DNA of 64,000 nucleotides from Ginsengibacter sp. Lineage in GTDB: Bacteria; Bacteroidota; Bacteroidia; Chitinophagales; Chitinophagaceae. The translations under genes and the position numbers were made by a program. The notes beneath the pieces were generated by a model that did not search any database, was not told the DNA's origin, and saw only the letters and a list, made by a program, of their open reading frames with translations. Where the stretch lies: assembly GCA_039931355.1 (NCBI GenBank), contig JBDTSD010000007.1, positions 314 through 64,313 of the forward strand, given 5' to 3'. This document shows, in pieces, positions 20,921-33,661 of this stretch (positions within the stretch are counted from its first letter, which is position 1; each line of letters starts with the position of its first letter).

Positions 20921-22549
20921 TCAAACCTTTACACCCGGTTCGGGGATCATTTCTATTGCATGGCAGGGACATTGCTCATAACACACTCCGCAACCGGTGC
21001 AGGCATCGAAGTTGAATTTATAACGGTTACCCTTACCCAGTTTTATGATGGCATCTTCCGGGCAGGCTCCAAAGCATCCATCACATTCAAAACAGTTACC
21101 GCAACTCAGGCATCGCTGCGCTTCAAATCTTGCTTCCGGTTCTGTGAGGCCTGTAATCACTTCGTCAAAACTTTTTATTGCAACAGCCGGCGGCAGTTTC
21201 TCCTGCTCCTGTTGGGGAGCATCTGTTTTGTACCACATATGCAGTTTACGATAGCCGGCGGTCGGATGCTTATCCGGTTTTTCGTAAGGTTCCTGCATCA
21301 AAAAAGCGTCGATATATTTTGCTGTTTTTTTCCCCTGGCCTATGGCAATAGTTGAGCTCCTGTTTTCACCGGGCAGCATATCCCCTCCGGCGAAAATTCC
21401 TTCATAGCCCGTCATACGTTGTGCATCGATTTTTACAGTTTCATCTTCGCCGAAGGTGATACCGGGAACGGAACGGAGAAACCCCGAGTCAGCTTCCTGT
21501 TTGTTGGCTATGATCAACACATCTGCTGCTATTGTTTCGTATTCATTTGTACCCAGCGCTTTTCCTTTTTCCACAACCATCTTCTCCAATGTAATATTGT
21601 TATTTGTAACAGATTTGATACTTCTTAAAAGCTGCACATCCACCCCTTCTGCCAATGCATCCTCCGTTTCATAATCATACGCAGGCATCAGTTTTTTATC
21701 GCCGGGGAAATAAACAGAGACTTCTGAATTCAACCTTTTTACAATACGGGCAAGGTATAAGGCCAGTTTTCCACCGCCATACACCACCACTTTCTTGTAA
21801 GAGTATGGAGATGTATATAACGCCAATTCATTAAAGAAAGCAAATGCGTTTGTGATGTATATTGATTTATCATCTTGAAAATCTTCTTTTCGTATTTGCT
21901 GAGCGCCGGTAGCAAGATACACGGCATCAAAGTTGCCGACTTTCTTTTCCATCAGCACATCGTTCACTTTGTAATTTAACCTGATCCTGACACCCAATGT
22001 TACAATGCGATTGATCTCTGCATCGAGTATCTCTTTTGGCAAACGATAATCCGGAACTCCTGTCCACAAAAGGCCACCTGCATGGCTACCTGCTTCAAAA
22101 ATCTCGACCGTATGGCCCATGCGCACCAGGTGATAGGCGGCGGATAAACCAGATGGGCCTGCTCCTATTACCAATACTCTTTTACCCGTCGGATTCGAAA
22201 GAAATTGTATCGGCCATTTGCGGGCGATCGCTTCATCACCAATAAACCTTTCGATGGCGTGAATATTTACAGTGGTATCAATGTGTGTGCGGTTACAACC
22301 TGTTTCGCAGGGCTTAACACATACCCGGCCCATAACAGCCGGAAAGGGATTGTCTTCCACAAGAACCTCAAAAGCTTCGAAATAATTACCAGCCTGTGCG
22401 TGTGCCATCCACCCCTGTATATTTTCACCGGCGGGGCAAGCACTGTTGCAGGGAGGCATGAAATCAACATACACAGGCCGGCGCACTCGTTTGGGGCCGG
22501 TGCCTTCGGCGTGTATAGTAAGGTCGATAGGTTTAGTAATATCAAACAT
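20921..22549 (-). CDS. GltD-like FAD/Fe-S oxidoreductase with a C-terminal 2x[4Fe-4S] ferredoxin domain
   Basis: PPCNSACPAG, GRVCVKPCETGCNR, IGAGPSGL, RCLSCGNCFECDGCFGACP, CTGCGVCYEQCPC. Confidence 0.9.
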   Translation of the reverse strand: MFDITKPIDLTIHAEGTGPKRVRRPVYVDFMPPCNSACPAGENIQGWMAHAQAGNYFEAFEVLVEDNPFPAVMGRVCVKPCETGCNRTHIDTTVNIHAIERFIGDEAIARKWPIQFLSNPTGKRVLVIGAGPSGLSAAYHLVRMGHTVEIFEAGSHAGGLLWTGVPDYRLPKEILDAEINRIVTLGVRIRLNYKVNDVLMEKKVGNFDAVYLATGAQQIRKEDFQDDKSIYITNAFAFFNELALYTSPYSYKKVVVYGGGKLALYLARIVKRLNSEVSVYFPGDKKLMPAYDYETEDALAEGVDVQLLRSIKSVTNNNITLEKMVVEKGKALGTNEYETIAADVLIIANKQEADSGFLRSVPGITFGEDETVKIDAQRMTGYEGIFAGGDMLPGENRSSTIAIGQGKKTAKYIDAFLMQEPYEKPDKHPTAGYRKLHMWYKTDAPQQEQEKLPPAVAIKSFDEVITGLTEPEARFEAQRCLSCGNCFECDGCFGACPEDAIIKLGKGNRYKFNFDACTGCGVCYEQCPCHAIEMIPEPGVKV

Positions 22550-22721
22550 ATTAAAACTAATAATTTTGAAAGATTAATTTTCTAAGTAGTAATCAAGGGG
22601 CTGTTAAACCGCTGTAAAATAGAATAACCAGCTCTTAGAAAAGATGATAAAATTCACATTAAAGAATGATATTGATCACACGCCTTCCCGCAAATTAGCC
22701 GGGATCGTATCATCTGGGTGA

Positions 22722-22844
22722 TTATACCGCAATGCAAGCCAGCCTTAAACTCAGGCAATAAACAAAGAATACCACACAGTAATAAAGTGAAACTGCCACC
22801 GCTAAGAAGGCTATGTATTGCAACCATGAAATTCCTGAAAGTAT
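22722..22844 (-). pseudogene. Possible remnant of a small membrane protein gene
   Basis: Frame reads ILSGISWLQYIAFLAVAVSLYYCVVFFVY with ATA where ATG would be expected; resemblance to Bacteroidota ICE-associated small proteins is from memory only. Confidence 0.25.
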
Positions 22845-23195
22845 GTCCTCGTATTTTTTTTAAACAAATAGCATAAGGGTGAAAAACCACCTTTTACCTC
22901 CGACTATGCTGGTAACTGCTGGCGCCAATGACAGCTGTGTTGGGTAAACCTTGTTATCCTGCACATGGACTACAACAGTGGGGATGGGAGCGGTCAAAGT
23001 ATGGAACAGGCATTGATAACTGGGATTTTGTATTTGAATTTATTGTGAATGAGTGGGGGTTGTGAGGTAGGGTTGTCTAGACTACTGTTGGTGTTTTTGG
23101 CATGGCTTTGCATGTGGCATTTACTCTCACACGAGAGCAACGACAGTTCTTATCTAATGAGATGTAAAATATCATTTATCTTTCATATCATTACA

Positions 23196-23212
23196 GTCAG
23201 GTTTATCCTGAC
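23196..23212. promoter_or_regulatory. Palindromic operator candidate upstream of abiEi
   Basis: gtcagg-tttat-cctgac, 9 bp before the ATG, downstream of a near -7 box (tatctttc). Confidence 0.55.
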
Positions 23213-23221
23213 ATATTTACT

Positions 23222-24043
23222 ATGAAGAATAAATATATATCAACGCAGTCCAATGAATTGCTATCTTATTTCAATGAGCAGAATAAGGCTGGTTTTGATT
23301 ATAGTGAGGCTTTCAGAGCATTGCCAGAGTCAAAGGACAGCACTCTTCGGGAGCTACTTAGCGACATGACAAAACGAGGACTTTTAATGCGATTAAAAGA
23401 AGGTGTTTATTACATCATTCCCTACGAGCAAAAGGCTGAATCATTTATGCCCGACTGGCATTTGATAGCAGAGCATTTGGTAAAAGATGCCAAACACTAT
23501 ATCGGTTACTATTCTGCTTTGCAAATTCATAACCTGATTACTCAACCTTCTTTAAAAGAACAGATTGTTGTTTCCAGACAACTCCGGCCATCAGAAATAA
23601 AAATCAAAAATGTTTCTTTTCAATTTATTTATCACAATGAAAAACATTTTTTTGGAGCAAAAAAAATATGGATAGATAATTTCAACAAGGTGCTTTGCTC
23701 AGACTTAGAAAAAACTTTTGTTGATTGCCTTTTCAAACCTGATTATGCTGGTGGCATGGTTGAAATAGCAAGAGCCATTTATATCTCAAAAGATAAAATC
23801 AAATTTGATACGTTGTTTGAGTATGTCAAAAAATTTAATTCACAAGCGGTAATAAAACGGTTGGGATTTCTTTTAGAAACGCTGGAAATAAATAACAGTA
23901 TAATTGATGAATTACAGAAACTTAAAACTACCTCTTATGTAATTGCGGATACAGAATTACCAAAAACGGGAAAACGAATCAGCAGATGGAGCATTCAGCA
24001 GAATATAGAAACGGAAACAATTAAATCAGCTATTTACACATGA
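23222..24043 (+). CDS. abiEi: Type IV TA antitoxin, AbiEi family transcriptional regulator
   Basis: N-terminal wHTH (LSDMTKRGLLMRLKEGVY), YIGYYSALQIHNL, SDLEKTFVDCL, KRLGFLLE. Confidence 0.88.
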   Translation: MKNKYISTQSNELLSYFNEQNKAGFDYSEAFRALPESKDSTLRELLSDMTKRGLLMRLKEGVYYIIPYEQKAESFMPDWHLIAEHLVKDAKHYIGYYSALQIHNLITQPSLKEQIVVSRQLRPSEIKIKNVSFQFIYHNEKHFFGAKKIWIDNFNKVLCSDLEKTFVDCLFKPDYAGGMVEIARAIYISKDKIKFDTLFEYVKKFNSQAVIKRLGFLLETLEINNSIIDELQKLKTTSYVIADTELPKTGKRISRWSIQQNIETETIKSAIYT

Positions 24044-24864
24044 TTAAGCCCATAGAGATAAAACAGAAGGCAAGAGAAGCGGGCGTTCGTGACCAGCAGA
24101 TAGAAAAGGACTATGTGCTTTCATGGATATTGAATGGTGTTGCACAACATGAACAGCTTTCAAAAATAATTGTATTTAAAGGTGGGACTGTTTTAAAGAA
24201 AATTTATTTCGAAGACTATCGGTTTTCTGAAGACCTTGATTTTACATTACTCAACAATGAAATAACCAATGAACAAATATTTACCTGGTTCAAAGAAACG
24301 TTTGAATATATTTTGGAAGAAGCAAACATAGTGCTCGGAATTATTAACCCCGATAGTAATCGGGGCAGGCCCGAACATGAAGATGGCGGTATCAATTTTT
24401 ACATCAGCTATACCGGTCCGCTTGGCGGGCAAGGCAATAATAAAAGAGTAAAAGTTGATATTTCCAGAAGTGAAAAACTGGAATTTGAACCGGTATTGAA
24501 AACGGGTATCATTGGCTATTCTGATTTAGAAGAACATCAACTATTATGTTATTCGCTTGAAGAAGTGTTGGTAGAAAAAATGCGGACAGTTATGCAGCGG
24601 ATGCAGGCAAGAGATTTTTATGACATCTGGTTTTTATTGGAACACCATGGGATGGATGCAGCATTTCATATAAATGAATTTGCAAAGAAATGTGCCAGCA
24701 AGAATTTGAACTACCTTGATTTCCCTAAAAAATTAGCCGAACGGTTACCACAATACAAAGGACGTTGGAAAAGCTCCATGAATGAACAGATAAAAAACTT
24801 ACCGGATTTTGAACAGGTAGAAAGAGAAGTGCAAAGACATTTAAAGAAATTGAAATTACAATGA
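24040..24864 (+). CDS. abiEii: Type IV TA toxin, AbiEii nucleotidyltransferase
   Basis: EKDYVLSWIL, FKGGTVLKKIYF, RFSEDLDF, EKMRTV, ARDFYDIW; ATGA overlap with abiEi. Confidence 0.92.
   Translation: MIKPIEIKQKAREAGVRDQQIEKDYVLSWILNGVAQHEQLSKIIVFKGGTVLKKIYFEDYRFSEDLDFTLLNNEITNEQIFTWFKETFEYILEEANIVLGIINPDSNRGRPEHEDGGINFYISYTGPLGGQGNNKRVKVDISRSEKLEFEPVLKTGIIGYSDLEEHQLLCYSLEEVLVEKMRTVMQRMQARDFYDIWFLLEHHGMDAAFHINEFAKKCASKNLNYLDFPKKLAERLPQYKGRWKSSMNEQIKNLPDFEQVEREVQRHLKKLKLQ
24347..24364. repeat. cccgatNNNNatcggg palindrome (family Q) in frame inside abiEii
   Basis: ccccgatagtaatcgggg within the segment encoding NPDSNRG. Confidence 0.7.
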
Positions 24865-24865
24865 C

Positions 24866-24952
24866 CAGTAACGGACCGATGGTTAAAGAATGCTGGACAA
24901 ACAAATTTATTCAGCAAAAGCTGAATTGCTTCAATTTTAATCCTTGTTAGCC
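24866..24952 (+). repeat. Degenerate attC-like element after abiEii
   Basis: cagTAAC 1 bp after the stop ... GTTAGCC, with weak internal inverted complementarity. Confidence 0.35.
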
Positions 24953-25172
24953 GCCTTGGAATTTGGCGTCTTCCCGGGAGAGTATAAATGGTGATCGGAA
25001 AAATTTTATTAAAGGAGATAAGATACCCGATAGCCTTGGATTTGATTGGTTAGTGCATGGTGACGGCATTAATTTTTCGCGGAACACCCATAGGGGCTAA
25101 AAAAAGAAGTGAATCTATTGGTCGATGTAAGTTGTACTTTTAAAAAAATTTCTGTATCAAAAATTAAACATA

Positions 25173-25451
25173 ATGGCATCTCCCAAAGATCTTAAGATTC
25201 TAGCTGTTAAGAATTCAAATCCTGAGTTGTATGAAAAAGTAATGAAAGGTGATATGAGTATACAAGATGCATACAATGAAACAAAAAGAATACAGTTAGG
25301 TCTTAGTGAGTTCAGAGGAAAAAACTCTAAGAAAAAAGAATTTAGCACTGATTTTAAAAGAATAATTCAATTGCACAATCCGTCGTCGGATGAACTTATC
25401 ACTGAAATAAAAAAAGCCTATCCATTAACTTGGAAGGAATTTTTAAAATAA
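25173..25451 (+). CDS. Small helical hypothetical protein
   Basis: 92-aa ORF with AT-rich leader; PELYEKVMKGDMSIQDAY resembles a helical motif recalled from ParB-associated proteins. Confidence 0.65.
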   Translation: MASPKDLKILAVKNSNPELYEKVMKGDMSIQDAYNETKRIQLGLSEFRGKNSKKKEFSTDFKRIIQLHNPSSDELITEIKKAYPLTWKEFLK

Positions 25452-25488
25452 ACTTTGTTCCAGGGGTTAAGTTTTTGTTGGTTAACAC

Positions 25489-25496
25489 TACATTTG
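25489..25496 (+). promoter_or_regulatory. -7 promoter box upstream of the sigma-like gene
   Basis: tacatttg matches TAnnTTTG exactly. Confidence 0.5.
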
Positions 25497-25617
25497 TATA
25501 GAGAATTTTACATATTATTTTTAAACCGGAGCGTTTCTGACACCGTAGGGGTTCAATAGTAGCCCCTCTGAATCAACAGAACAACAGTTGCAGAACACTC
25601 CACAAATCTGCACTGTA

Positions 25618-26244
25618 ATGGACAAACAATCCAAGCCGGGTTATTACATTTTCCATCCTGAAAAAGGCAACGAATTATTTTTACTCCGTGCTGCAAAGGC
25701 CAGCGATAAATTGCATGCAAGAGCCGCAAAGAATCAACTCATTATTGACAATGAAGGTTTTCTTCGGGCTACAATTCAAGAATGGGTCGGATTAAAATCA
25801 TTTATTGACTTTGACTATTTGCTTGAAGAAGCACGAATCTCTTTTTTTACAGCCATTGAGAAATATGACTTGAATCAAGATGTTTCAATTCGTACTTACG
25901 CAAAGTTCCATCTCATGGAATTGAGAAGGCAAACTTTTAGGCCAACAAAATTCACGGAGTTTAAAAAAGAATATTGCGGAGAAACATTTTTTCTTCCGAA
26001 TCCTGATTTCAAAAATTTTGACTTGAAAGCAATCGTAATGACTGCTCTGGAAAAAGCACTCACTATACTTGAACAAGAAGTAATCTACATGCACTTTTTT
26101 GAAGGATACAAAAAGAGGCAGATTGCATTGCAACGCCAATGTTCGGAAGCGAGAGTTTGCACCATTGTAAAAAATGCTCTCCCGAAACTCAAAGTATATC
26201 TCCTAAGTATCGGCATCGTTCCCGGATTTCTCGAACTCAATTAA
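25618..26244 (+). CDS. Sigma-70 family factor-like protein (regions 2 and 4 only; ATG 25618 or TTG 25588)
   Basis: AKNQLIIDNEGFL (2.1), LLEEARISFFTAIEKYD (2.2), SIRTYA (2.3), LTILEQEVIYMHFFEGYKKRQIA..SEARVCTIVKNALPKLK (region 4 HTH). Confidence 0.75.
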   Translation: MDKQSKPGYYIFHPEKGNELFLLRAAKASDKLHARAAKNQLIIDNEGFLRATIQEWVGLKSFIDFDYLLEEARISFFTAIEKYDLNQDVSIRTYAKFHLMELRRQTFRPTKFTEFKKEYCGETFFLPNPDFKNFDLKAIVMTALEKALTILEQEVIYMHFFEGYKKRQIALQRQCSEARVCTIVKNALPKLKVYLLSIGIVPGFLELN

Positions 26245-26285
26245 ACAATCAATCAAATAATTTCAAACAAATTAATTCAAACAAA

Positions 26286-28112
26286 ATGGAAGCAACAGTT
26301 AAAACAAATGAGATAGAATCTCTACAAGGTTTAGAACGCCAACGGGCATTTCTTGACACTATCAAAGCAGGGGGCACAAAGGATGATTCCTTTTTCGTTA
26401 CCGAAAAAGTAATGGAGAGTATGCGTGATAGCGGCTACCGCGACATACGCAAAGCTCTTAATGATTTAATGGATAATGCTGAACAAGCCGGAGCAAAGAA
26501 AATTGCAATTATAACCACGACTGAAAAGGAGAATGTAAAAGGTGCAAGAGAAAAAATTTCAAATATTGCTGTTATTGATGATGGACATGGAATGTTCCCA
26601 GAGATGTTAGAGATTGCGGTTAAGTGGGGAGGCACAGACAGACATAACCAAAGAGATGGGTTAGGAAGATTTGGTTTTGGCCTGCCAACCGCATCCATAA
26701 GCGTAACCCGTGTGTATGAAGTTTACTCCAAAACAAAAGGAGGTGATTGGCACAAAGTAAAAGTTGACCTTAATGAAATTGCTAAGAAAGCAATGACAAG
26801 CGGAGGCAACGCATCTTTTACTCCACAGTTTGAAAAAGGAACTCCACCCGCTTTTGTAAAAGAGTATATCAAAAAGCAATGGAAGAAAGACGACCTCGAA
26901 CACGGCACAGTTGTTTTGCTTTTGAATCCTGATAGAATTAGAAGTTATGCTTTACCACAAACTTTTCAACGAAAGATGTTAGAAAATATTGGATTAACCT
27001 ATCGACACTTTATGCCCGATTTAAATTTTTCGGTTAACGATAAGAAAGTTGAAATGATAGACCCACTTTTCCTAAATCCCAATTGTATGGGCTATGATGT
27101 AGGCAACGGTCATTTTGCTGAAGGGCTTGATGAAATGATAATCCCCGTTAAAAATAAGTTGGCAAATGGGAAGGATATTGTTGGTAATATAAGATTGAGG
27201 TTTTCATTTATGCATCCTAAGTTTCAAAAGGGCGACCCAGAGAAATACACTAATAAGGGAGAGATTCCTATCCGAATGAATACCATGAAAGAAAACAATG
27301 GTTATTTCATTGTGTGCAGAGCGGGTCGCCAAATTGATGTTGTGAGGGATACAAATTATCAAAGCAATAATGATAATACAACAATTGTCAACTATGATGT
27401 TAACTGGGGCATTGAATTACACTTTGAACCAATCTTAGATGAACTATTCGGGATTACGACGAATAAGCAACAAGTTGAAATTGATTCTTATCTCTGGGAT
27501 ATTTTTAAAGAGAATAACATACCAGCAATTGTTACTTCTTTTCGCTCAAGGCATAAAAAACTAATAACAAAAGATGAAGTTATCACCGAGGAGAAAAAAG
27601 ATGAGAGCAGAAGTTCAGAACAAATAATGACTGATGCTGACAAGTTCGACCAACTTGAATTGCCTATTTTAAAGAAGGAACAAGGAGAAGAAAAGCTCAG
27701 GGAAAAAGCAGAAGAAATTGCGCAGAAGGAAAATGAAAAAGTCGAGACGGTTGTCGAAAGAATGGAAATAGAAGCAGAGAAAAAGAAATTCAAAATTGAA
27801 TTCACTGACTTCCCTGGGGCACCGTTCTACGATGTTGAAATTTGGGGTAAGCAAATCAGAATTAAGATTAATACTGCACACCGTTTTTATGCTGACATTT
27901 ATTCACAGCAAGACCATCGAGGAAAAACAGCAATTGAACTCTTGTTATTTGTATTTGGAAAATGTGAAGCTGAGTCAGATGGCGAGAAGCAACTTTTTTA
28001 TGGCAACGAAAGATTTGAATGGTCGAAGCAACTTGATTTGAGATTGAAGATGCTTGACAAGCAAGACCCAATGGCTGATAAACTTTCTTTCGTAGAGGAA
28101 GAAGCGAGTTAA
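26286..28112 (+). CDS. MORC-type GHKL ATPase 1 (start placed at ATG 26286)
   Basis: RDSGY, NDLMDNAEQA (N-box), DDGHGM (G1), GRFGFGLPTASIS (G2); S5-like RAGRQID and ELFGITTNKQ; charged helical linker; INTAHRFY tail domain. Confidence 0.88.
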   Translation: MEATVKTNEIESLQGLERQRAFLDTIKAGGTKDDSFFVTEKVMESMRDSGYRDIRKALNDLMDNAEQAGAKKIAIITTTEKENVKGAREKISNIAVIDDGHGMFPEMLEIAVKWGGTDRHNQRDGLGRFGFGLPTASISVTRVYEVYSKTKGGDWHKVKVDLNEIAKKAMTSGGNASFTPQFEKGTPPAFVKEYIKKQWKKDDLEHGTVVLLLNPDRIRSYALPQTFQRKMLENIGLTYRHFMPDLNFSVNDKKVEMIDPLFLNPNCMGYDVGNGHFAEGLDEMIIPVKNKLANGKDIVGNIRLRFSFMHPKFQKGDPEKYTNKGEIPIRMNTMKENNGYFIVCRAGRQIDVVRDTNYQSNNDNTTIVNYDVNWGIELHFEPILDELFGITTNKQQVEIDSYLWDIFKENNIPAIVTSFRSRHKKLITKDEVITEEKKDESRSSEQIMTDADKFDQLELPILKKEQGEEKLREKAEEIAQKENEKVETVVERMEIEAEKKKFKIEFTDFPGAPFYDVEIWGKQIRIKINTAHRFYADIYSQQDHRGKTAIELLLFVFGKCEAESDGEKQLFYGNERFEWSKQLDLRLKMLDKQDPMADKLSFVEEEAS

Positions 28113-28114
28113 GT

Positions 28115-28139
28115 AAAAGGGGGCTAACGTCCCCCTTTT
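28115..28139 (+). terminator. Intra-operon hairpin between the two ATPase genes
   Basis: aaaaggggg-ctaacgt-ccccctttt. Confidence 0.55.
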
Positions 28140-28152
28140 AAATTTCACAAAC

Positions 28153-29643
28153 ATGGAAACAAGTATTATACAGTTTCAGAATTTTATTATTGCTACAAGA
28201 GATTCGGGCTACAAAAGCACTGCATCTGCCTTAGCAGAATTAGTTGACAATGCTATCGAAGCTCATGCGACTAAAGTTGAAATTCGAATTATCAAAGTTG
28301 ATGAATCAGAAAATGAGCAGTATGAAGTTTATGTAGTTGACAATGGAAAAGGAATGACAGAAAACGAACTCAATCTTGCTTTGCAATTCGGAGGGAGTTC
28401 ACGATTCAATTCACGAAGTCAACTTGGTCGCTATGGAATGGGATTACCAAATAGTTCTTTGAGCCAAAGCCGGAGGGTTGAAGTAACGACATGGAAAAAC
28501 AAAGGCGCATTTATCAGCAACTACCTTGATGTTGATGAGGTGATTGATAAAAAACTTACTTATTTGCCAAAACCTAAAAAATCCACAGAATGTTCTTTAC
28601 CAATTCATAGTAAGTCAGGGACTATAGTTCGGTGGAAAAAATGCGACCGCCTGTCGTTTAAGTATTTGAAAAGTTTGGTGAAGCATATCCAATTTGAATT
28701 GGGAAGAATTTTCCGTTATGCAATTTGGCGTGGGGTGGAAATAAAAGTGTGCAATGAAAAAGTAATTGCCTTTGACCCGCTTTTCATTGGCGAAGGAGTG
28801 AGTTTGAAAGGTGGTGTTCCTTATGGCAAGGAATTGCATTACGAAATAAAGTTACCAGGTAATGAAAAAAATATTTCGGATGTGCGGGTGCGATTTATTG
28901 AATTGCCTGTGCAGGATTGGGCAAAGTTGCCTAATGAGGAGAAACGAAGAAACCAAATCACGAAGTGTGCAGGTGTAACAATTCTTCGTGCTGAAAGAGA
29001 AATTGATTACGGTTGGTTTTTCATGGGAGAAAAGCGCAAGGAAAATTATGATGACTGGTGGCGGTGTGAAATTTCTTTTAGTCCTGATTTGGATGAAGTG
29101 TTTGGTGTAACACATACCAAACAAGAAATAAAGCAAACGGAGTTCATGAATAACATTCTTGTGCCTGACATGGAACAAACAGCACGGGCATTGAATAATC
29201 GAGTGCGCTTGAATTTTATTGACCTGAAGAAAACGCATCCTGCAGTTTATTCAAAACAGCAACTTGAACGAACTGATGTGTACTTGCCTGCGCTGAAAAA
29301 AAATGGAGGTGTTGTTACAAAGATGAATGCCAGCAGTAAAATCAAGGGTCTGCAATATGAAATCGTGACGAAGGAATTGAAGGACGACATTTTTTTTGAT
29401 GTCGAAGAAATTCAAAACTGCATTGTATTGACCGTGAACACTGCTCATTTATTTTATGACAAAGTTTTTAAAGCACTGCACGAGCGAAGGATAAACAATG
29501 TAGCAGGGTTTATCAAAGTCATGGAGATGCTGATCTTTGCTGCTGCAAGGTCAGAGTTTGCATTTACTGGAAGAAAGGAAGGCAAGATTATTTCGGACTT
29601 CAAAAAAGAATGGAGTTCTCAGTTAAAAACATTTATTAGTTAA
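28153..29643 (+). CDS. MORC-type GHKL ATPase 2, paralogue of ATPase 1
   Basis: RDSGY, AELVDNAIEA, DNGKGM, GRYGMGLPNSSLS, RAEREID, DEVFGVTHTKQ, VNTAHLFY. Confidence 0.9.
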   Translation: METSIIQFQNFIIATRDSGYKSTASALAELVDNAIEAHATKVEIRIIKVDESENEQYEVYVVDNGKGMTENELNLALQFGGSSRFNSRSQLGRYGMGLPNSSLSQSRRVEVTTWKNKGAFISNYLDVDEVIDKKLTYLPKPKKSTECSLPIHSKSGTIVRWKKCDRLSFKYLKSLVKHIQFELGRIFRYAIWRGVEIKVCNEKVIAFDPLFIGEGVSLKGGVPYGKELHYEIKLPGNEKNISDVRVRFIELPVQDWAKLPNEEKRRNQITKCAGVTILRAEREIDYGWFFMGEKRKENYDDWWRCEISFSPDLDEVFGVTHTKQEIKQTEFMNNILVPDMEQTARALNNRVRLNFIDLKKTHPAVYSKQQLERTDVYLPALKKNGGVVTKMNASSKIKGLQYEIVTKELKDDIFFDVEEIQNCIVLTVNTAHLFYDKVFKALHERRINNVAGFIKVMEMLIFAAARSEFAFTGRKEGKIISDFKKEWSSQLKTFIS

Positions 29644-31664
29644 TGGAAAAGGAAGTAATAAATATAGAGCCGAAATTAAGCAAGGTGCAACTTGAAATGT
29701 TTTTGAATTTCTGCAAGCGGGTGAAGAAATCGGTGAACAGAAAAAGAATTGATGTGAGAATTGAATTTTTGGTGAAGGAGAAAGAGGAAGTGAATGGGCA
29801 ATATAGTGGAAAGGGATTTCATCCACATACAGATTTGGCTTTCATGGAAAATTTGATTTTGGATTTGATGTTGCAAGATTGGGAACTGATAGTGAACAGA
29901 GGAAAGATTTTGCTGGAGTTGGAAACATTGGACATGAAGGATAAAAATCTTGACGATGAAAAAGCGAAAACGAGGCGCAGGCATTTATTAGCCAGAGATG
30001 TGCAACTGAAAGAAACTTCAGTAAGAGATTTCATTCGAGGAATGGAAAAAAGGCGACTAACTTCCAAAGGCTGGCAGTCGATCTTTTCTATTATGCGTGA
30101 TGGCAGTGAATTGAAAAAACTGTTGAATGAAGTAAAGCACCTTGCAACAGAAGACAAGAAGGTTGATGCGCTCAACAAAATTGTAAGGCCTTACATTCAG
30201 GTTGTCGAACCCACAGAAAAATGTGAGCAAACCGGCTTGGCTCTCTCTGACATTTGGAGATACTTCAGACACACCTGGATTAACGAATACAAATCGTTGC
30301 CGGGAAGATCAATGTCAATTTTGATTCGTGATGCTGCTGCACCCAATCACCCGGTGATTGGCATTGCAGCTCTTGGTAGCTCTGTTGCACAACAAACTTG
30401 CAGAGATGAATGGATAGGTTGGAATGGCGAAACATTTATTGAACGATTGAAAAATGACCCATCAGCAAAGCTTGGAAAATGGATTATTGAAACATTGGAA
30501 ATGCTTCTTAGTGAAATCTATCTGAAAGATTTTTTTAAGAGCAAAATCATTTCTCTTTCTGACATCAGAAATCCTTCATCGGAAAAAATAAAGGAGTTGC
30601 GTGAACTGTCGCTTCTGTTTAAGGCCAAGCACATGAACAACCCTGAAACTGCAAAGTTTAGTGTTGGTAACGATGAAATGAGTTGGTCCCAACGAGCCGA
30701 AACAAATTTGTTCAAGAGCAAAAGAGCGACTCTGCTTGCAGAACTGCTCGGAATAAAAATGATGCTGAACAAATATGAGTTCACGAAGGGAACGAAGAAA
30801 GAATTGGAAAGGTGTTTGGAGAATACAGATTTTCGAAATGCTGTAGAAAGATTAGCAAGAAAAGCAAAGTCCATTCACGTTGGAATAAATATGATGGACA
30901 TTATTGTTGCCGGTTCTGTTGCTCCTTATAATCATTTGCTGGGAGGTAAACTTGTTTGTATGATGCTGACGAGCCCTGAACTTACCCAATACTATAATGA
31001 GAAGTATGGGGAATATGTGAGTTTAATTGCTTCTTCTATGAGTGGCAAGGCACTTGTGCGGAAGCCGCAACTTGTAATGCTTGGCACTACAAGTTTGTAT
31101 GGGGTTGGAAGCAGCCAATACAACAGAATAAAAATTCCTGTTGAAGAAATCGGTGGGAAGAAAGGCCACAAAATAGAATACAAGGAACTTGGATTCAGCG
31201 AGGGCTTTGGTTCGTTTCATTTCAGCAGTAACACAATCACTTTAGCAGATGCTGTTGCTGGGCGTGAAAGTGGTAGAAAGCGTGTGAACAGTATTTTCGG
31301 TGAAGGTGCAAATCCATTGATAAGAAAGTTGAAAGACGCAATGGAGCATTTAGAGTTGGAGAGTAATCCAATTTTAAATCATCGTAACAAAAGAGTAGTA
31401 TATGGGATTGCTTTAGCAGAAAATTTTGGTGATGTTTTGCTGGGCTTAGCCGAGCGACCTAAGTATTTAATACCACAAGGAAAGCCAAAATTGCAAAGCG
31501 AGTTGATTGGCAAGTATTGGATAAAGCGATGGCTACTTAACCGAATTAAGAATGATGAAATTTTAGAAAAAGTTAATATGCATTCTCTATCATATCCGAT
31601 CACACATGGAGCAAGAGTGCCGCTAAATGAAGACGAAAATCAACTGGCATTATTTAATACTTGA
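29643..31664 (+). CDS. druA: DruA / DUF4338-like protein
   Basis: WRYFRHTW..LPGRSMSILIRDAAAPNHPVIGIAAL, RDEWIGW, GSVAPYNHLLGGKLV, GTTSLYGVGSSQYNR; TAATG coupling to ATPase 2. Confidence 0.78.
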   Translation: MEKEVINIEPKLSKVQLEMFLNFCKRVKKSVNRKRIDVRIEFLVKEKEEVNGQYSGKGFHPHTDLAFMENLILDLMLQDWELIVNRGKILLELETLDMKDKNLDDEKAKTRRRHLLARDVQLKETSVRDFIRGMEKRRLTSKGWQSIFSIMRDGSELKKLLNEVKHLATEDKKVDALNKIVRPYIQVVEPTEKCEQTGLALSDIWRYFRHTWINEYKSLPGRSMSILIRDAAAPNHPVIGIAALGSSVAQQTCRDEWIGWNGETFIERLKNDPSAKLGKWIIETLEMLLSEIYLKDFFKSKIISLSDIRNPSSEKIKELRELSLLFKAKHMNNPETAKFSVGNDEMSWSQRAETNLFKSKRATLLAELLGIKMMLNKYEFTKGTKKELERCLENTDFRNAVERLARKAKSIHVGINMMDIIVAGSVAPYNHLLGGKLVCMMLTSPELTQYYNEKYGEYVSLIASSMSGKALVRKPQLVMLGTTSLYGVGSSQYNRIKIPVEEIGGKKGHKIEYKELGFSEGFGSFHFSSNTITLADAVAGRESGRKRVNSIFGEGANPLIRKLKDAMEHLELESNPILNHRNKRVVYGIALAENFGDVLLGLAERPKYLIPQGKPKLQSELIGKYWIKRWLLNRIKNDEILEKVNMHSLSYPITHGARVPLNEDENQLALFNT

Positions 31665-31677
31665 TAAAACAAATCTT

Positions 31678-32169
31678 ATGGCAAGGAAAGTTTTTTTTAG
31701 TTTCCAATTTCAAAAGGATCATTGGCGGGCAGGGCAGGTGAGAAGTATTGGAGCGATAGAAGGTAACTCTGAAGTCTCAGATAACAAATGGGCAGAAATA
31801 AAAGCTCAAGGAGATAACGAAGTAAAAAAATGGATTAATGAAAATATGATTGGGAGAACTTGTTTAGTTGTTCTAATCGGTAATGGAACAGCTGATAGGA
31901 AATGGATAAACTACGAAATTGAAAAGGCTTGGAACGACAAAAGAGGTGTTGTCGGAATATATGTCCACAATTTAAAAAATAGCGCAGGTGAACAAGATGA
32001 CAAAGGTTATAACCCATTCGATTATGTATATCATGATGGAAAGAAACTTTCATCTATTGTAAAAACATTCAATTCAATTTATTCAACCAGTACATACGTT
32101 TACGATGATATAAAAAATAATCTTGTGAATCTTATAGAAGAGGCTATTAAAATTCGGGACAATAATTGA
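31678..32169 (+). CDS. thsB: ThsB-like TIR-domain protein (DUF1863/MTH538; start placed at ATG 31678)
   Basis: MARKVFFSFQF..DHWRAGQVR, IKKW-like EVKKWINENM, LVVLIG..TADRKWINYEI (catalytic Glu), GVVGIYVHNLK, GYNPF. Confidence 0.88.
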   Translation: MARKVFFSFQFQKDHWRAGQVRSIGAIEGNSEVSDNKWAEIKAQGDNEVKKWINENMIGRTCLVVLIGNGTADRKWINYEIEKAWNDKRGVVGIYVHNLKNSAGEQDDKGYNPFDYVYHDGKKLSSIVKTFNSIYSTSTYVYDDIKNNLVNLIEEAIKIRDNN

Positions 32170-32213
32170 AAACGCAAAAATTTACCTATTGTGAGGATTT
32201 TGTTTAATCCCAA

Positions 32214-32239
32214 GGTGCCGCCAGCATCCGCTGGTGACC
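32214..32239. repeat. Short REP-like hairpin at the right edge of the island
   Basis: ggtgccgccagc-atcc-gctggtgacc. Confidence 0.4.
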
Positions 32240-32416
32240 ACTATTAAAATAAAATCTGAAATGCTATTTAATCGTTTTTTCACATCTCCCCAACGAAACT
32301 GGACTTCCTGATCCTCTTCCCCGTCATCTCAAAAATTGCAGTGACCAATTCGGTGCAAAAAGCAGCGAACCGCTCCACCGCATAAATAAAAAACTCCTCG
32401 GCACTTTACGATTCCC

Positions 32417-33661
32417 TCACAACCAAAGCGAACCAATTGCAAATAACAACGCCACTGTCATTACCAGCAAACCAGTTTTTAGAAAATCCCAGGCGGTAAC
32501 ATTGATGCCTTCCCGCCGCAAGGCAACAAGCCAGAGAATGGTTGCAAGTGAGCCGGTGACAGAAAGGTTGGGGCCGAGGTCTGTGCCGATAAGGATAGCG
32601 CTCTTTATCATGCCGGGCACCTCTCCGGATTGCACCACGTGCCCGGCAATAAGGCCTGCGGGCAGGTTGTTTACCAGGTTGCTGGCAAAGGCGACAATAA
32701 AACCGCAGCCCCATATAGTTGCGGTTATGGATCTACTGATACCCTGCTGCAAAATTGTTGACAGCATATCAATCAGCCCGGTTTTATCAAGCGCTTCCAC
32801 TATTATAAAGAGGCCTGCAACTAATAGCAGTACAGACCAGGTCATACCTTGTAAAACTCTTTGTGGACTTTTCTTTGCAGCCAGCAACACTATGGCTGTA
32901 GTCAATACACCTGTGATGGCCGTAGGCAAGCCGAGTTGTAAATCCAATGCAGAGGCGATAAGTAAAATAATCGCGGTAGCCGCAATACCCCATAAGGCAG
33001 TTCTTCCGCCATTTGTAAGCGCTGGTATTTCAATGCGGGTTTCAATTGTTTGACGGATGTTTTTGCGTTGCACCAGGTAAAGTATTATGTAGGTCACCAC
33101 TATAGCACAAACGGAAGGCAGCGAATATAGTTGCAACCATTGCTTCAAGGGTGGCATGCGGCTTCCATAGATTACCAGGTTAGCCGGGTTGGAAATGGGC
33201 AATACAAAAGAAGCAGCATTCGCTACGAAGGCGCAGATAAGCAGGTAAGGAAGCGGGTTCTTTACTTTGGCTGCTTTTGTAGCTGCAATCACAGCAGGCG
33301 TAAGTACAACAGCAGTTGCATCATTGGATAAAAATACCGTGACGAGCGTGCCTGTTATGTACATCAAAAGAAAGAGCCGGTTGCTTGAACCTTTGGCTAT
33401 ATTGGTAGCGTGGGCGGCCAGCCAGTCAAAGAGCTTTTCTTCGCGGGCTGTTTCTGCCAGCAGCATCATACCGGTTAAAAATAAATAGACATCTGTACCC
33501 CTGTTGATTCCTGTAAACCCTTCTGCCGGAGATATAAGTCCGCACGCTAGCAACAGTATCGCGCCACCTACAGCCCACACGACCTCCGGCACTTTGAAAG
33601 GGCGTATGATAACCCCGGTTATAGATAAAAATGCAATGCTCCAGGTAGCAACGTGGTTCAT
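32417..33661 (-). CDS. ArsB/NhaD family permease (arsenic transporter-like)
   Basis: LSNDATAVVLTP, ANAASFVLPISNPANL, SNLVNNLPA, LGPNLSVTGSLATILW. Confidence 0.88.
   Translation of the reverse strand: MNHVATWSIAFLSITGVIIRPFKVPEVVWAVGGAILLLACGLISPAEGFTGINRGTDVYLFLTGMMLLAETAREEKLFDWLAAHATNIAKGSSNRLFLLMYITGTLVTVFLSNDATAVVLTPAVIAATKAAKVKNPLPYLLICAFVANAASFVLPISNPANLVIYGSRMPPLKQWLQLYSLPSVCAIVVTYIILYLVQRKNIRQTIETRIEIPALTNGGRTALWGIAATAIILLIASALDLQLGLPTAITGVLTTAIVLLAAKKSPQRVLQGMTWSVLLLVAGLFIIVEALDKTGLIDMLSTILQQGISRSITATIWGCGFIVAFASNLVNNLPAGLIAGHVVQSGEVPGMIKSAILIGTDLGPNLSVTGSLATILWLVALRREGINVTAWDFLKTGLLVMTVALLFAIGSLWL

What the first reader, a model, noticed from the sequence alone, without database searches (positions are those of the whole stretch)
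23222..32169. Nine-kb co-oriented defence-type island with an unfamiliar gene set
Seen: abiEi, abiEii, small ORF, sigma-like, MORC, MORC, druA-like and TIR genes, all on +, between two minus-strand housekeeping blocks. Known: AbiE, DruA and ThsB belong to three different defence systems and bacterial MORCs are usually linked to restriction-modification. None of the usual partners (DruE, ThsA, methylase, nuclease) is present. I do not recognise this combination as a named system.
Basis: partly seen in the sequence, partly recalled or inferred. Interest (0 to 1): 0.75.

Follow-up and report, generated by a model that had tools for sequence, protein, structure and literature searches.

The report
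Defence island: AbiE, helicase-less Druantia relative, orphan ThsB
The 9-kb island is not one new system. It is three separately inherited anti-phage units side by side, and the middle one (a private sigma factor, two MORC-like ATPases and a long DruA protein) is a widespread, unnamed and untested relative of type I Druantia that lacks the Druantia helicase.

Summary

The eight genes are not one system. AbiEi/AbiEii is a complete, known toxin-antitoxin pair. The TIR gene is a true ThsB whose close homologues sit just after ThsA in ordinary Thoeris operons. Here ThsA is missing, and the gene downstream of related cassettes differs from locus to locus.

The conserved unit is a 93-aa ORF, a sigma factor, GHKL1, GHKL2 and a long DruA.
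- GHKL2 lies directly upstream of long DruA in 74 of 80 genome loci from many phyla.
- In most loci this pair heads a type I Druantia-like operon: an unknown 966-aa protein, DruD, DruE and a PD-(D/E)xK nuclease.
- In the remaining loci, as here, it carries sigma plus GHKL1 instead. Among loci with full flanks the counts are 2/19/33/1, and the partner switches at least 10 times on the DruA tree.
- GHKL2 folds like MORC2/3/4.
- The sigma gene follows a structured leader RNA that has no Rfam family. The window's own copy matches it only weakly.

No DruE, DruD or ThsA lies in the 64 kb. The rest of the genome could not be searched.

I found no paper or PADLOC model for this cassette. This scan has already met the same cassette in at least four other genomes. 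Function and mechanism remain inferred.

The parts
23222..24043 (+). AbiEi antitoxin of a type IV toxin-antitoxin / abortive-infection pair (unit 1)
   Evidence: PADLOC AbiEi PDLC02267, 1.7e-95, profile positions 1-251 of 252. Overlaps AbiEii by 4 nt.
24040..24864 (+). AbiEii nucleotidyltransferase toxin (unit 1). It carries an in-frame 18-nt palindrome at 24348-24365.
   Evidence: Pfam PF08843, 2.7e-36; PADLOC PDLC02304, 6.5e-94. Palindrome.
25173..25451 (+). Conserved 92-aa ORF of unknown function at the head of the cassette (unit 2)
   Evidence: No Pfam, PADLOC, NCBIfam or PHROG hit. 85% identical homologue in the same position in L088. Also present in L010, and in L003/L011 directly before GHKL2.
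25525..25617 (+). Leader RNA before the sigma gene: a divergent copy of a conserved structured element plus a hairpin ending 2 nt before the AUG. A Bacteroidota-type -7 box, TACATTTG, lies about 30 nt upstream.
   Evidence: Model R1, built without the window, hits 17 loci at E<0.004, every checked hit lying just before the sigma gene. In the window its best hit is at exactly this spot, but only 10 bits, E 0.33. Pair counts. Single-sequence folds. Promoter boxes. No Rfam family.
25618..26244 (+). Small sigma-70-family factor (regions 2 and 4), always paired with GHKL1 (unit 2)
   Evidence: TIGR02937 5e-11 (42.5 bits, cut-off 42.9). Sigma70_r4 3e-5. PHROG 351 sigma factor 1e-12 over residues 23-206. 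Homologues lie directly upstream of GHKL1 in more than 17 loci.
26286..28112 (+). GHKL1: longer MORC-like GHKL ATPase, full-length paralogue of GHKL2 (unit 2)
   Evidence: HATPase_c_3 3.6e-17. 26% identical to GHKL2 over 552 columns, E 5e-36. Bergerat motifs conserved across 118 family members. 220 clusters at 50% identity with E<=1e-30.
28119..28134 (+). G+C-rich hairpin with a T-rich tail between the two ATPase genes. Its position is conserved at the junction of the two gene pairs in other phyla.
   Evidence: Terminator-like site. Equivalent hairpins with different sequences are visible in L006-L008, L086, L088, L013, L016, L022, L052, L064 and L090.
28153..29643 (+). GHKL2: MORC-like ATPase (GHKL plus S5/transducer domain), the constant partner of long DruA (unit 2)
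   Evidence: HATPase_c_3 6.6e-25. PDB sequence hits MORC2/3/4, 4e-9. AF2 model pLDDT 84.5; Foldseek MORC3 3e-14 over about 420 columns. Directly upstream of DruA in 74 of 80 loci. Shares 1 nt with the druA start.
29643..31664 (+). Long DruA: N-terminal extension of about 170 aa, then a DUF4338 domain split by a helical insert of about 145 aa (unit 2)
   Evidence: PADLOC DruA1 PDLC00001, 6e-175. The Pfam DruA profile matches in two pieces, profile 42-129 at residues ~175-271 and profile 129-296 at residues 415-600. AF2 model pLDDT 87. 3525 database homologues and 470 genome loci.
31678..32169 (+). Orphan ThsB-type TIR protein (unit 3), 13 nt after the druA stop
   Evidence: PF08937 8.8e-24; PADLOC ThsB 1.5e-69; PDC-M50B 2.4e-57. 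Homologues at 80% and 60% identity follow ThsA (SIR2-STALD) in Thoeris operons. No ThsA in the window.

Best explanation
The island is a small defence island made of three units that are inherited separately.

1. A complete AbiEi/AbiEii toxin-antitoxin (abortive infection) pair.
2. A five-gene cassette: 93-aa ORF, sigma factor behind a structured leader RNA, MORC-like ATPase GHKL1, MORC-like ATPase GHKL2, long DruA.
3. An orphan ThsB TIR gene, left without its ThsA.

The cassette is a helicase-less relative of a long-DruA, type I Druantia-like system.

Shown:
- GHKL2 and long DruA are a near-obligate, translationally coupled pair.
- This pair almost always carries one of two partner modules, either 966-aa protein/DruD/DruE/nuclease or sigma plus GHKL1. 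It rarely carries both and almost never neither. The partner has been exchanged many times.
- GHKL2 has a MORC fold, and both ATPases keep their ATP-binding motifs.
- In related loci the sigma gene sits behind a host-type promoter and a conserved leader that can fold in two ways. One fold buries the stretch just before the start codon.

Inferred:
- A GHKL2 dimer and DruA (acyltransferase-like according to PMC10853773) form the part that engages or marks invading DNA or a phage product.
- In the helicase form, DruE and the nuclease then destroy the DNA.
- In the form seen here, the output is the private sigma factor. It would be kept off by its leader RNA and possibly held by GHKL1, as the GHKL-fold anti-sigma SpoIIAB holds sigma F. 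On infection it would redirect or sequester RNA polymerase.

I put about 0.8 on the three-unit anatomy and the Druantia kinship, about 0.6 on an anti-phage role for the cassette, and about 0.25-0.3 on this particular mechanism.
For: Anatomy and family hits.

The cassette recurs without AbiE or the TIR. Downstream neighbours vary: a full Thoeris system, an OLD-family nuclease, ParE.

GHKL2 lies upstream of DruA in 74 of 80 loci.

Helicase-type operon, GHKL2-DruA-966aa-DruD1 (3.6e-120)-DruE1 (E=0)-PD-(D/E)xK nuclease.

Contingency on 55 loci with at least 8 kb on both sides: both partners 2, sigma/GHKL1 only 19, helicase only 33, neither 1. Fisher p 1.4e-11, not corrected for relatedness. At least 10-12 forced partner switches on the DruA tree.

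Distant GHKL1 homologues (about 40% identity) are again found in the order sigma-GHKL1-GHKL2-DruA.

MORC fold of GHKL2. ATPase paralogy and motifs.

Leader RNA. No Rfam family.

ThsB homologues in Thoeris operons.

Low GC. Defence and mobile-element neighbours of related cassettes (RES-Xre, ParE, OLD nuclease, Thoeris, ICE genes).

No description in PADLOC 2.0 or in the searchable papers.
Against: No experiment exists for any member of the cassette. Even for canonical type I Druantia I found no paper describing what DruA does.

The acyltransferase fold of DruA was not confirmed here. Foldseek gave no significant PDB match; the best hit, E 0.89, was a MYST acetyltransferase. No GNAT Pfam hit appeared.

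No sigma-dependent promoter was identified.

The window's own leader matches the covariance model only weakly (10 bits, E 0.33), and the covariation support is moderate (73% of cells paired against 65% in shuffles).

All three metagenome contexts of distant GHKL1 homologues carry both sigma-GHKL1 and helicase-module genes (DruE in two, the 966-aa partner in the third). So 'alternative partners' is a tendency, not a rule.

A DruE or ThsA gene could lie on another contig of this genome, which I could not search.

The 13-nt gap between druA and thsB fits co-transcription, so the TIR may not be functionally independent here.
Confidence: 0.6

Rival explanations
1. All eight genes form one new composite defence system. 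AbiE, the sigma/MORC/DruA genes and the TIR would act together, for example with the TIR as the cassette's effector.
For: All genes are co-oriented and tightly packed in one low-GC block. thsB starts 13 nt after druA, so co-transcription is likely. A related cassette in a Cyclobacteriaceae genome is followed by a full Thoeris system. Iyer et al. 2008 report TIR domains fused or adjacent to one paraMORC family.
Against: Neither AbiE nor this ThsB family recurs next to the cassette in the 80 genome loci or in the closest relatives (86%, 78% and 68% DruA identity). The downstream gene is different each time. The Thoeris ThsB proteins of L001 are only distant relatives of the window's TIR (1e-27). 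The TIR's close homologues are in ThsA-ThsB operons. A 308-nt gap with a reverse-strand terminator-like hairpin separates AbiE from the cassette.
Confidence: 0.12
2. The cassette is only the decayed or split front end of an ordinary long-DruA type I Druantia system. The helicase half was lost, leaving a non-functional remnant, or is encoded elsewhere in the genome and still works with it.
For: In 47 of 80 loci the GHKL2-DruA pair sits with 966aa-DruD-DruE and without GHKL1. Some loci hold both modules. The rest of this genome could not be searched. An earlier scan report (e1-2876395) described one such front end truncated by an insertion sequence.
Against: All five cassette genes are intact here, with conserved catalytic motifs. 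Nineteen loci with full 8-kb flanks, from several phyla, have sigma-GHKL1 and no helicase module. Only 1 of 55 has neither partner, which is not what random decay would give. The partner type switched at least 10 times. The sigma-GHKL1 pair has its own conserved leader and junction hairpin.
Confidence: 0.2
3. The cassette is not an immune system. It would be a regulatory or maintenance module of mobile elements: a private sigma factor with chromatin-like MORC ATPases that control or silence element genes.
For: Related cassettes lie on integrative or conjugative elements (ArdC, TrwB, serine recombinase, T4SS genes). Eukaryotic MORCs silence DNA. The sigma factor suggests gene control. No nuclease or other obvious killing domain is present.
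Against: The core pair is shared with an operon containing DruD, DruE and a nuclease, which match PADLOC models of the type I Druantia defence system. Neighbours are mostly defence genes and toxin-antitoxin pairs. In this window it lies between housekeeping genes with no mobility genes. Only 7 hits were found in 2.9 million viral contigs.
Confidence: 0.08

Closest known systems
Type I Druantia (DruA-DruB-DruC-DruD-DruE; Doron et al. 2018, cited from my own knowledge; PADLOC models DruA1, DruD1, DruE1)
   Same: DruA (DUF4338) is present and matches PADLOC's long DruA1 model over its full length (6e-175). In 47 of 80 related loci the same GHKL2-DruA pair is followed by DruD1 (3.6e-120), DruE1 (E=0) and a DruK-like PD-(D/E)xK nuclease.
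   Different: The window has no DruE, the hallmark of every Druantia type, and no DruB, DruC or DruD. It adds a MORC-like ATPase before DruA plus a sigma factor and a second ATPase, none of which has a Druantia model in PADLOC 2.0. In the related helicase operons a 966-aa protein with no PADLOC or Pfam hit stands where DruB/DruC would be.
Prokaryotic MORC/paraMORC ATPases of restriction-modification-like operons (Iyer, Abhiman, Aravind 2008, PMC2292703)
   Same: GHKL plus S5 ATPase module with intact ATP-binding motifs. Association with an SF2 helicase and a restriction-endonuclease-fold nuclease in the helicase-type relatives. Patchy distribution spread by horizontal transfer.
   Different: No methylase, helicase or nuclease lies next to them here. 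The partners are DruA and a sigma factor, and neither 'sigma' nor 'acetyltransferase' occurs in that paper's text (0 hits each). Two paralogous ATPases in tandem share a family-specific C-terminal domain.
Thoeris type I (ThsA SIR2-SLOG/STALD plus ThsB TIR)
   Same: The TIR protein is a full-length ThsB (1.5e-69). It is 80% identical to a ThsB that directly follows ThsA in another Bacteroidota-like contig.
   Different: There is no ThsA in 64 kb. The gene follows druA instead.
AbiE type IV toxin-antitoxin system
   Same: Both proteins match over their full length, and the genes overlap by 4 nt.
   Different: Nothing apart from an 18-nt palindrome translated in frame within AbiEii.
SpoIIAB/sigma F (GHKL-fold anti-sigma factor). 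A functional analogy only, from my own knowledge.
   Same: A GHKL-fold protein encoded next to a small sigma factor. GHKL2 gives a weak hit to the anti-sigma F model TIGR01925 (0.0023).
   Different: SpoIIAB is a 146-aa kinase, whereas these are 500-600-aa MORC-like ATPases. No SpoIIAA-like partner is present. No binding has been shown.
Menshen/Mza (MzaB) and Tiamat, defence systems built on GHKL/GHL ATPases
   Same: The N-terminal GHKL domain gives the only PADLOC/NCBIfam defence hit for both ATPases (MzaB 8e-12 and 1e-16). Tiamat shows that a GHL ATPase can itself defend against phage (abstract listed).
   Different: Scores of 45-76 bits lie far below the MzaB cut-off of 850, and only about 150-200 N-terminal residues match. 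No other Mza genes are present.

Membership tests
AbiE (type IV TA / abortive infection) | AbiEi antitoxin and AbiEii (DUF1814 nucleotidyltransferase) toxin encoded as an adjacent bicistronic pair | tested here: met
   PADLOC AbiEi 1.7e-95 and AbiEii 6.5e-94, both full length. Pfam PF08843 126 bits against a cut-off of 22.5. 4-nt overlap.
AbiE (type IV TA / abortive infection) | Toxicity neutralised by the antitoxin; phage abortive infection | not testable with these tools
   Needs expression and phage assays.
Druantia type I | DruA (DUF4338) | tested here: met
   PF14236 109 bits against a cut-off of 27. PADLOC DruA1 PDLC00001 6e-175.
Druantia type I | DruE, the large YprA-family helicase with DUF1998/MZB, hallmark of all Druantia types | tested here: not met
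   tblastn with a DruE1 protein from L069 found nothing in the 64-kb window. No PADLOC DruE hit among the island ORFs. The rest of the genome could not be searched.
Druantia type I | DruB, DruC and DruD | tested here: not met
   No PADLOC DruB/C/D hit among the island ORFs. tblastn with DruD and the 966-aa partner found nothing in the window.
Thoeris | ThsB TIR-domain protein | tested here: met
   PF08937 84 bits against a cut-off of 21.2. PADLOC ThsB PDLC00433 1.5e-69, profile positions 1-163 of 164. The WINYEIE motif with its Glu is present.
Thoeris | ThsA effector (SIR2 or TM/macro plus SLOG/STALD) in the same locus | tested here: not met
   tblastn with the ThsA of L001 found nothing in the window. 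No SIR2 or STALD hit in the island.
MORC / paraMORC GHKL ATPases | Bergerat ATP-binding motifs (ExxxNxxD, DxGxG, GxxGxG) | tested here: met
   Intact in both proteins and near-invariant in 118 GHKL1 and 75 GHKL2 relatives. The GHKL1 general-base position is E in 79 and D in 39 sequences, and D in the window.
MORC / paraMORC GHKL ATPases | GHKL domain followed by an S5-fold transducer domain | tested here: met
   The GHKL2 model (pLDDT 84.5) aligns over about 400-430 columns with the MORC3, MORC2 and MORC4 ATPase modules, E 3e-14 to 5e-13, TM 0.43-0.54. For GHKL1 this is inferred from full-length paralogy.
MORC / paraMORC GHKL ATPases | The MORC-specific sequence motif that separates MORC proper from paraMORC1-5 (Iyer et al. 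2008) | not tested
   I did not have the family alignments, so 'MORC-like' is the safe label.
Sigma-70 family (ECF-like, regions 2 and 4) | Region 2 and region 4 domains above the curated thresholds | tested here: inconclusive
   TIGR02937 42.5 bits against 42.9. Sigma70_r4 23.9 against 24.1. Both are just below cut-off. PHROG 351 sigma factor 1e-12 over residues 23-206. Homologues in related loci hit Sigma70_r2 and r4 without a weak mark.
Sigma-70 family (ECF-like, regions 2 and 4) | Binds core RNA polymerase and directs it to a cognate promoter | not testable with these tools
   No candidate target promoter was found upstream of GHKL2.
Menshen/Mza (MzaB) | Full-length match to the MzaB equivalog | tested here: not met
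   45.2 and 75.6 bits against a cut-off of 850; N-terminal GHKL domain only.
Any Rfam RNA family (for the sigma leader) | Match at or near a family's gathering score | tested here: not met
   Nothing relevant in window 22500-32500 at E<=1, and nothing at gathering score in six loci with strong leader copies.
PADLOC candidate system PDC-M50 | PDC-M50B together with PDC-M50A | tested here: inconclusive
   The TIR matches PDC-M50B at 2.4e-57, but no island ORF matched a PDC-M50A model. What the A component is could not be looked up.

The most novel reading that the evidence does not exclude
The sigma-GHKL1 pair is a true alternative effector arm to the DruE helicase-nuclease. This would be an immune system whose output is a private sigma factor. 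That factor would be held off by a riboswitch-like leader RNA and perhaps by a MORC-like anti-sigma ATPase. After the MORC-like ATPase/DruA core detects infection, it would capture or redirect host RNA polymerase. That would be a defence logic not described for any known system, and it would also give the first functional handle on DruA.
Probability: 0.22. Interest if true: 0.85.

Novelty: new variant of a known kind. Interest (0 to 1): 0.6.

Why it matters
I found no paper in the searchable library that explains what DruA does or how type I Druantia senses phage.

This work shows that a long form of DruA is locked to a MORC-like ATPase, and that this pair can swap the whole helicase-nuclease arm for a sigma factor and a second ATPase. 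That splits the system into a conserved core and exchangeable arms, each of which can be cloned and tested.

If the helicase-less form protects by itself, it would be a new kind of immune output (transcriptional) and a bacterial setting in which to study MORC ATPases, which silence foreign DNA in plants and animals. The leader RNA before the sigma gene would be a new regulatory RNA class present in several phyla.

For genome annotation, the lesson is that 'DruA', 'ThsB' and 'AbiE' hits lying side by side should not be merged into one system. Current tools miss the cassette altogether.

Tried and rejected
1. One eight-gene system. Rejected because AbiE and the TIR are not conserved with the cassette.
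2. TIR as a core part. Rejected because its close homologues are in Thoeris operons, and the ThsB proteins next to the L001 cassette are only distant relatives.
3. GNAT fold of DruA. Full-length Foldseek against the PDB gave nothing significant (best E 0.89). The profile search against PDB sequences gave nothing. Permissive Pfam scans of sub-fragments gave only DruA itself. The claim therefore rests on PMC10853773 alone.
4. RNAalifold on a plain MAFFT alignment of 19 leaders predicted no structure. A hand-given structure and a covariance model were needed.
5. A cassette-specific (ECF-type) promoter. A GGAAA-N17-CGTAT-like motif seen by eye in some Bacteroidota loci did not hold across loci. 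The elements nearest the leader are host-type promoters. No shared motif was found upstream of GHKL2.
6. 'Asymmetric catalytic sites' of the two ATPases. The GHKL1 base position is D here, but it is E in 79 and D in 39 relatives, always acidic, so inactivation is not supported.
7. Island borders. No tRNA, integrase domain, att-like direct repeats or empty-site comparator was found.
8. Phage origin. Only 7 of 2.9 million viral contigs carry a long DruA.
10. Literature. Searches for DruA, DUF4338, GHKL, MORC, sigma and GNAT found no description of the cassette.

Full report
**What is in the window.**

The + strand between 23.2 and 32.2 kb carries nine ORFs.
- AbiEi (23222-24043) and AbiEii (24040-24864) match PADLOC models over their full length (1.7e-95 and 6.5e-94). 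AbiEii also matches Pfam PF08843.
- After a 308-nt gap come a 92-aa ORF with no family hit and a sigma-70-like gene (TIGR02937 5e-11, Sigma70_r4 3e-5, phage sigma PHROG 1e-12).
- Two GHKL ATPase genes follow (HATPase_c_3 3.6e-17 and 6.6e-25).
- Next is a 673-aa DruA, which matches PADLOC's 675-position DruA1 model at 6e-175.
- Last is a ThsB-type TIR (1.5e-69).
- A 58-aa ORF at 23049-23225 has no homologues and is probably not a gene.

Probable true starts are 25618 for sigma, 26286 for GHKL1 (a 99% identical database protein has 608 aa) and 31678 for ThsB, 13 nt after the druA stop.

The flanks are - strand housekeeping genes: PFOR, a GltD-like oxidoreductase, an ArsB/CitMHS transporter, aroQ and carA. 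GC drops from 0.44-0.48 to 0.34-0.40 inside the island. I found no tRNA, integrase domain or bordering repeats.

**Which genes belong together.**

The DruA protein has thousands of full-length homologues of about 672 aa. It has 470 hits among one-genome-per-species contigs. I fetched 80 of these loci with 10-kb flanks and clustered their ORFs.
- A GHKL2-type ATPase gene lies directly upstream of druA in 74 of 80 loci, and any GHKL paralogue is found in 77 of 80.
- In the window the two genes share one base.
- AbiE never recurs.
- A TIR of the window's family appears in only two of these genome loci. In one it belongs to a complete Thoeris system beside the cassette. In the other it lies about 9 kb away.
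- Among the closest relatives (86%, 78% and 68% DruA identity) the gene after druA is different each time: a ParE toxin-antitoxin pair, a DUF1508 gene followed by an OLD-family nuclease, or a full Thoeris system.
- By contrast, the 93-aa ORF (85% identical in L088), sigma and GHKL1 do recur in the same order.

So the island holds three units: AbiE, the five-gene cassette, and the TIR gene.

**The TIR.**

It belongs to a tightly conserved family of 163-165-aa ThsB proteins. Homologues at 80% and 60% identity sit immediately after a SIR2-STALD ThsA and before a second TIR gene, the canonical Thoeris arrangement. One in Neomoorella is an orphan in a decayed island. The window has no ThsA. The gene is intact and keeps the conserved Glu of WINYEIE. 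Whether it works with a ThsA elsewhere, is a remnant, or is used by the cassette cannot be decided here.

**Relation to Druantia.**

In 47 of the 80 loci the GHKL2-DruA pair, without GHKL1, is joined to three or four further genes.
- A protein of about 966 aa with no Pfam or PADLOC hit.
- A protein matching PADLOC DruD1 (3.6e-120).
- One matching DruE1 (E=0; DEAD, Helicase_C and MZB domains).
- Often a PD-(D/E)xK nuclease resembling DruK.

This is a type I Druantia-like operon with a MORC-like ATPase in front. None of the papers I could search mentions that ATPase.

In 27 loci the pair is joined to GHKL1, usually preceded by the sigma gene. Only 3 of those 27 also have the helicase module. Restricting to the 55 loci with at least 8 kb on both sides gives: both 2, sigma/GHKL1 only 19, helicase only 33, neither 1. 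Fisher p is 1.4e-11, uncorrected for relatedness.

On a DruA tree the partner type changes at least 10-12 times across starred branches, often between close relatives. The pattern is therefore not one old split.

The association is a tendency, not a law. Three metagenome contexts found through distant GHKL1 homologues all show sigma-GHKL1-GHKL2-DruA together with helicase-module genes: DruE in two of them, the 966-aa partner in the third. The two gene pairs can also be convergent or divergent (L015, L060), which marks them as separate transcription units.

**The proteins.**

*GHKL2.* It gives PDB sequence hits only to MORC2/3/4 and MutL. Its AlphaFold model (pLDDT 84.5) matches the MORC3, MORC2 and MORC4 ATPase modules at 3e-14 to 5e-13 over about 420 columns, so it has both the GHKL and the S5 domain. 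Hsp90, SMCHD1 and topoisomerase VI-B follow.

*GHKL1.* It is a full-length paralogue of GHKL2: 26% identity over 552 columns, with a shared C-terminal 'NTAHxFY' domain. Both families keep the Bergerat motifs. The GHKL1 general-base position is Glu or Asp, so I see no evidence for a dead subunit. GHKL1 has 220 representative clusters at E<=1e-30 in 1.84 billion proteins.

*DruA.* It models well (pLDDT 87) but has no significant structural neighbour in the PDB. The best hits, at E about 1, are MYST acetyltransferases. The Pfam DruA domain is split in this long form by an insert of about 145 aa and preceded by an extension of about 170 aa. Aravind's group annotates DUF4338 as a GNAT-like acetyltransferase domain (PMC10853773). 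I could not confirm that here.

**The leader RNA.**

An earlier report of this scan pointed to a leader RNA before the sigma gene, and I tested the lead.
- Upstream regions of sigma genes from 19 loci share a 5' GGnGGUUY segment, an internal hairpin, a GAACCUCC segment, and a hairpin ending a few bases before the AUG.
- When the downstream arm is removed, the 5' segment pairs with GAACCUCC instead. This gives two mutually exclusive folds, one of which buries the ribosome-binding stretch.
- A covariance model built from 13 loci found 17 loci at E<0.004. Three of them were not in the seed (L087, L052, L018). All checked hits lie just upstream of the sigma gene.
- Pair counts give 73% of cells paired against 65% in shuffles. 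The covariation score is 0.38 against 0.25 (0 of 500 shuffles reach it), and slid controls are lower.
- The alternative long-range helix also holds: 69% paired, with covarying pairs, on an alignment not fitted to it.
- The support is moderate.
- The window's own copy is divergent. It is the best hit in the 10-kb region and sits in the expected place (25525-25603), but scores only 10 bits, E 0.33.
- No Rfam family matches.

Immediately upstream, the promoter follows the host: TTGACA-N17-TATAAT-like in Acidobacteriota, Verrucomicrobiota and Spirochaetota, and the Bacteroidota TAnnTTTG box in Bacteroidota, the window included. That fits constitutive transcription with control at the RNA level.

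Between GHKL1 and GHKL2, a G+C-rich hairpin, often with a T tail, is conserved in position but not in sequence. In the window it lies only 18 nt before the GHKL2 start codon. GHKL2-druA must therefore be reached by read-through.

**How it most likely works.**

Shown:
- the gene linkage;
- the exchangeable partner modules;
- the MORC fold and intact ATP sites;
- the leader, the host-type promoters and the junction hairpin.

Inferred:
- The MORC-like GHKL2 dimer and DruA form the constant core that recognises or marks invading DNA or a phage product.
- In the helicase form, DruE and the nuclease are the executioners.
- In the form present here, the sigma factor is the output. It would be kept untranslated by its leader and possibly held by GHKL1, as the GHKL-fold anti-sigma SpoIIAB holds sigma F (analogy from my own knowledge). 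When released it would redirect or sequester RNA polymerase.

I give this mechanism about 0.25-0.3, an anti-phage role for the cassette about 0.6, and the three-unit anatomy about 0.8. Rivals are a single composite system (0.12), a decayed or split ordinary Druantia (0.2) and a mobile-element regulatory module (0.08).

**Known or new.**

AbiE and ThsB are known. The cassette fails the membership test for Druantia, because DruE, DruB, DruC and DruD are not met in the window. It also fails for Menshen (MzaB scores far below cut-off). PADLOC 2.0 has no model for either ATPase or for the sigma factor. My searches of PubMed Central and bioRxiv found no description. I class it as a new variant of a known kind.

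This scan has already reported the same cassette from at least four other genomes. My results, obtained independently from this window, agree with those reports on the Druantia kinship, the ATPase paralogy and the leader RNA.

**Limits.**

I could not look for DruE or ThsA on other contigs of this genome, nor check transcription. A database record shows the protein on a 64,409-base contig, so the window is probably almost a whole contig of a metagenome-assembled Bacteroidota genome. Its nearest relative is an Ohtaekwangia bin with 87% DruA identity.

Noticed in passing
window 28119-28134, and the GHKL1/GHKL2 junctions of L006-L008, L086, L088, L013, L016, L022, L052, L064, L090: A G+C-rich hairpin, often with a T-rich tail, sits between the two ATPase genes in cassettes from several phyla. 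Its sequence differs but its position is kept. In the window only 18 nt remain before the GHKL2 start codon. It may be a leaky or regulated terminator that sets the ratio of the two gene pairs.
   Followed up: partly
window ~25491-25498, and 80 nt upstream of the leader in 18 loci: The promoter in front of the sigma leader is of the host's own type: TTGACA/TATAAT outside Bacteroidota and TAnnTTTG in Bacteroidota. The cassette appears to adapt its promoter to each host while keeping the leader RNA.
   Followed up: partly
window 24348-24365 and 43899-43916: A perfect 18-nt palindrome, CCCCGATAGTAATCGGGG, is translated in frame inside AbiEii as NPDSNRG. A second copy with 3 mismatches lies 19.5 kb away. 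Chance expectation is 0.03 matches. Another first-stage note treats this as a small palindromic element family.
   Followed up: partly
L087:3816-8034: In a relative with 78% DruA identity the leader RNA is well preserved (46 bits). Between it and druA, however, the gene caller reports only many short ORFs. This may be a decayed sigma/ATPase region or a low-quality contig.
   Followed up: no
L069 (Halotalea alkalilenta) and L070 (Castellaniella daejeonensis), whole loci: Two bacteria of different classes carry almost identical GHKL2-DruA-966aa-DruD-DruE-nuclease loci (DruA branch lengths 0.0012). Close copies also occur in Myxococcota, Desulfobulbus and an Acidobacteriota bin. This points to very recent horizontal transfer.
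   Followed up: no
L001:5042-5428 and a cluster of 13 loci (c25): A small YunG-family gene (PF24585) lies near the cassette in 13 of 80 loci, on either side and on either strand. It is absent from the window. Its role is unknown.
   Followed up: no
L069:12175-15072 and homologues in 40 loci: The protein of about 966 aa that stands where DruB/DruC would be in the long-DruA Druantia-like operon has no Pfam or PADLOC hit at all. A recent preprint says type I/II Druantia encode inactivated McrB-like CnuB homologues (10.1101/2025.09.15.676423). Whether this protein is one of them was not tested.
   Followed up: no
window 31678-32169 and P0242-P0361: This ThsB family is unusually well conserved for a defence TIR: 57-62% identity between Bacteroidota, Firmicutes, Ignavibacteriota and a Saccharibacteria (TM7) genome.
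   Followed up: no
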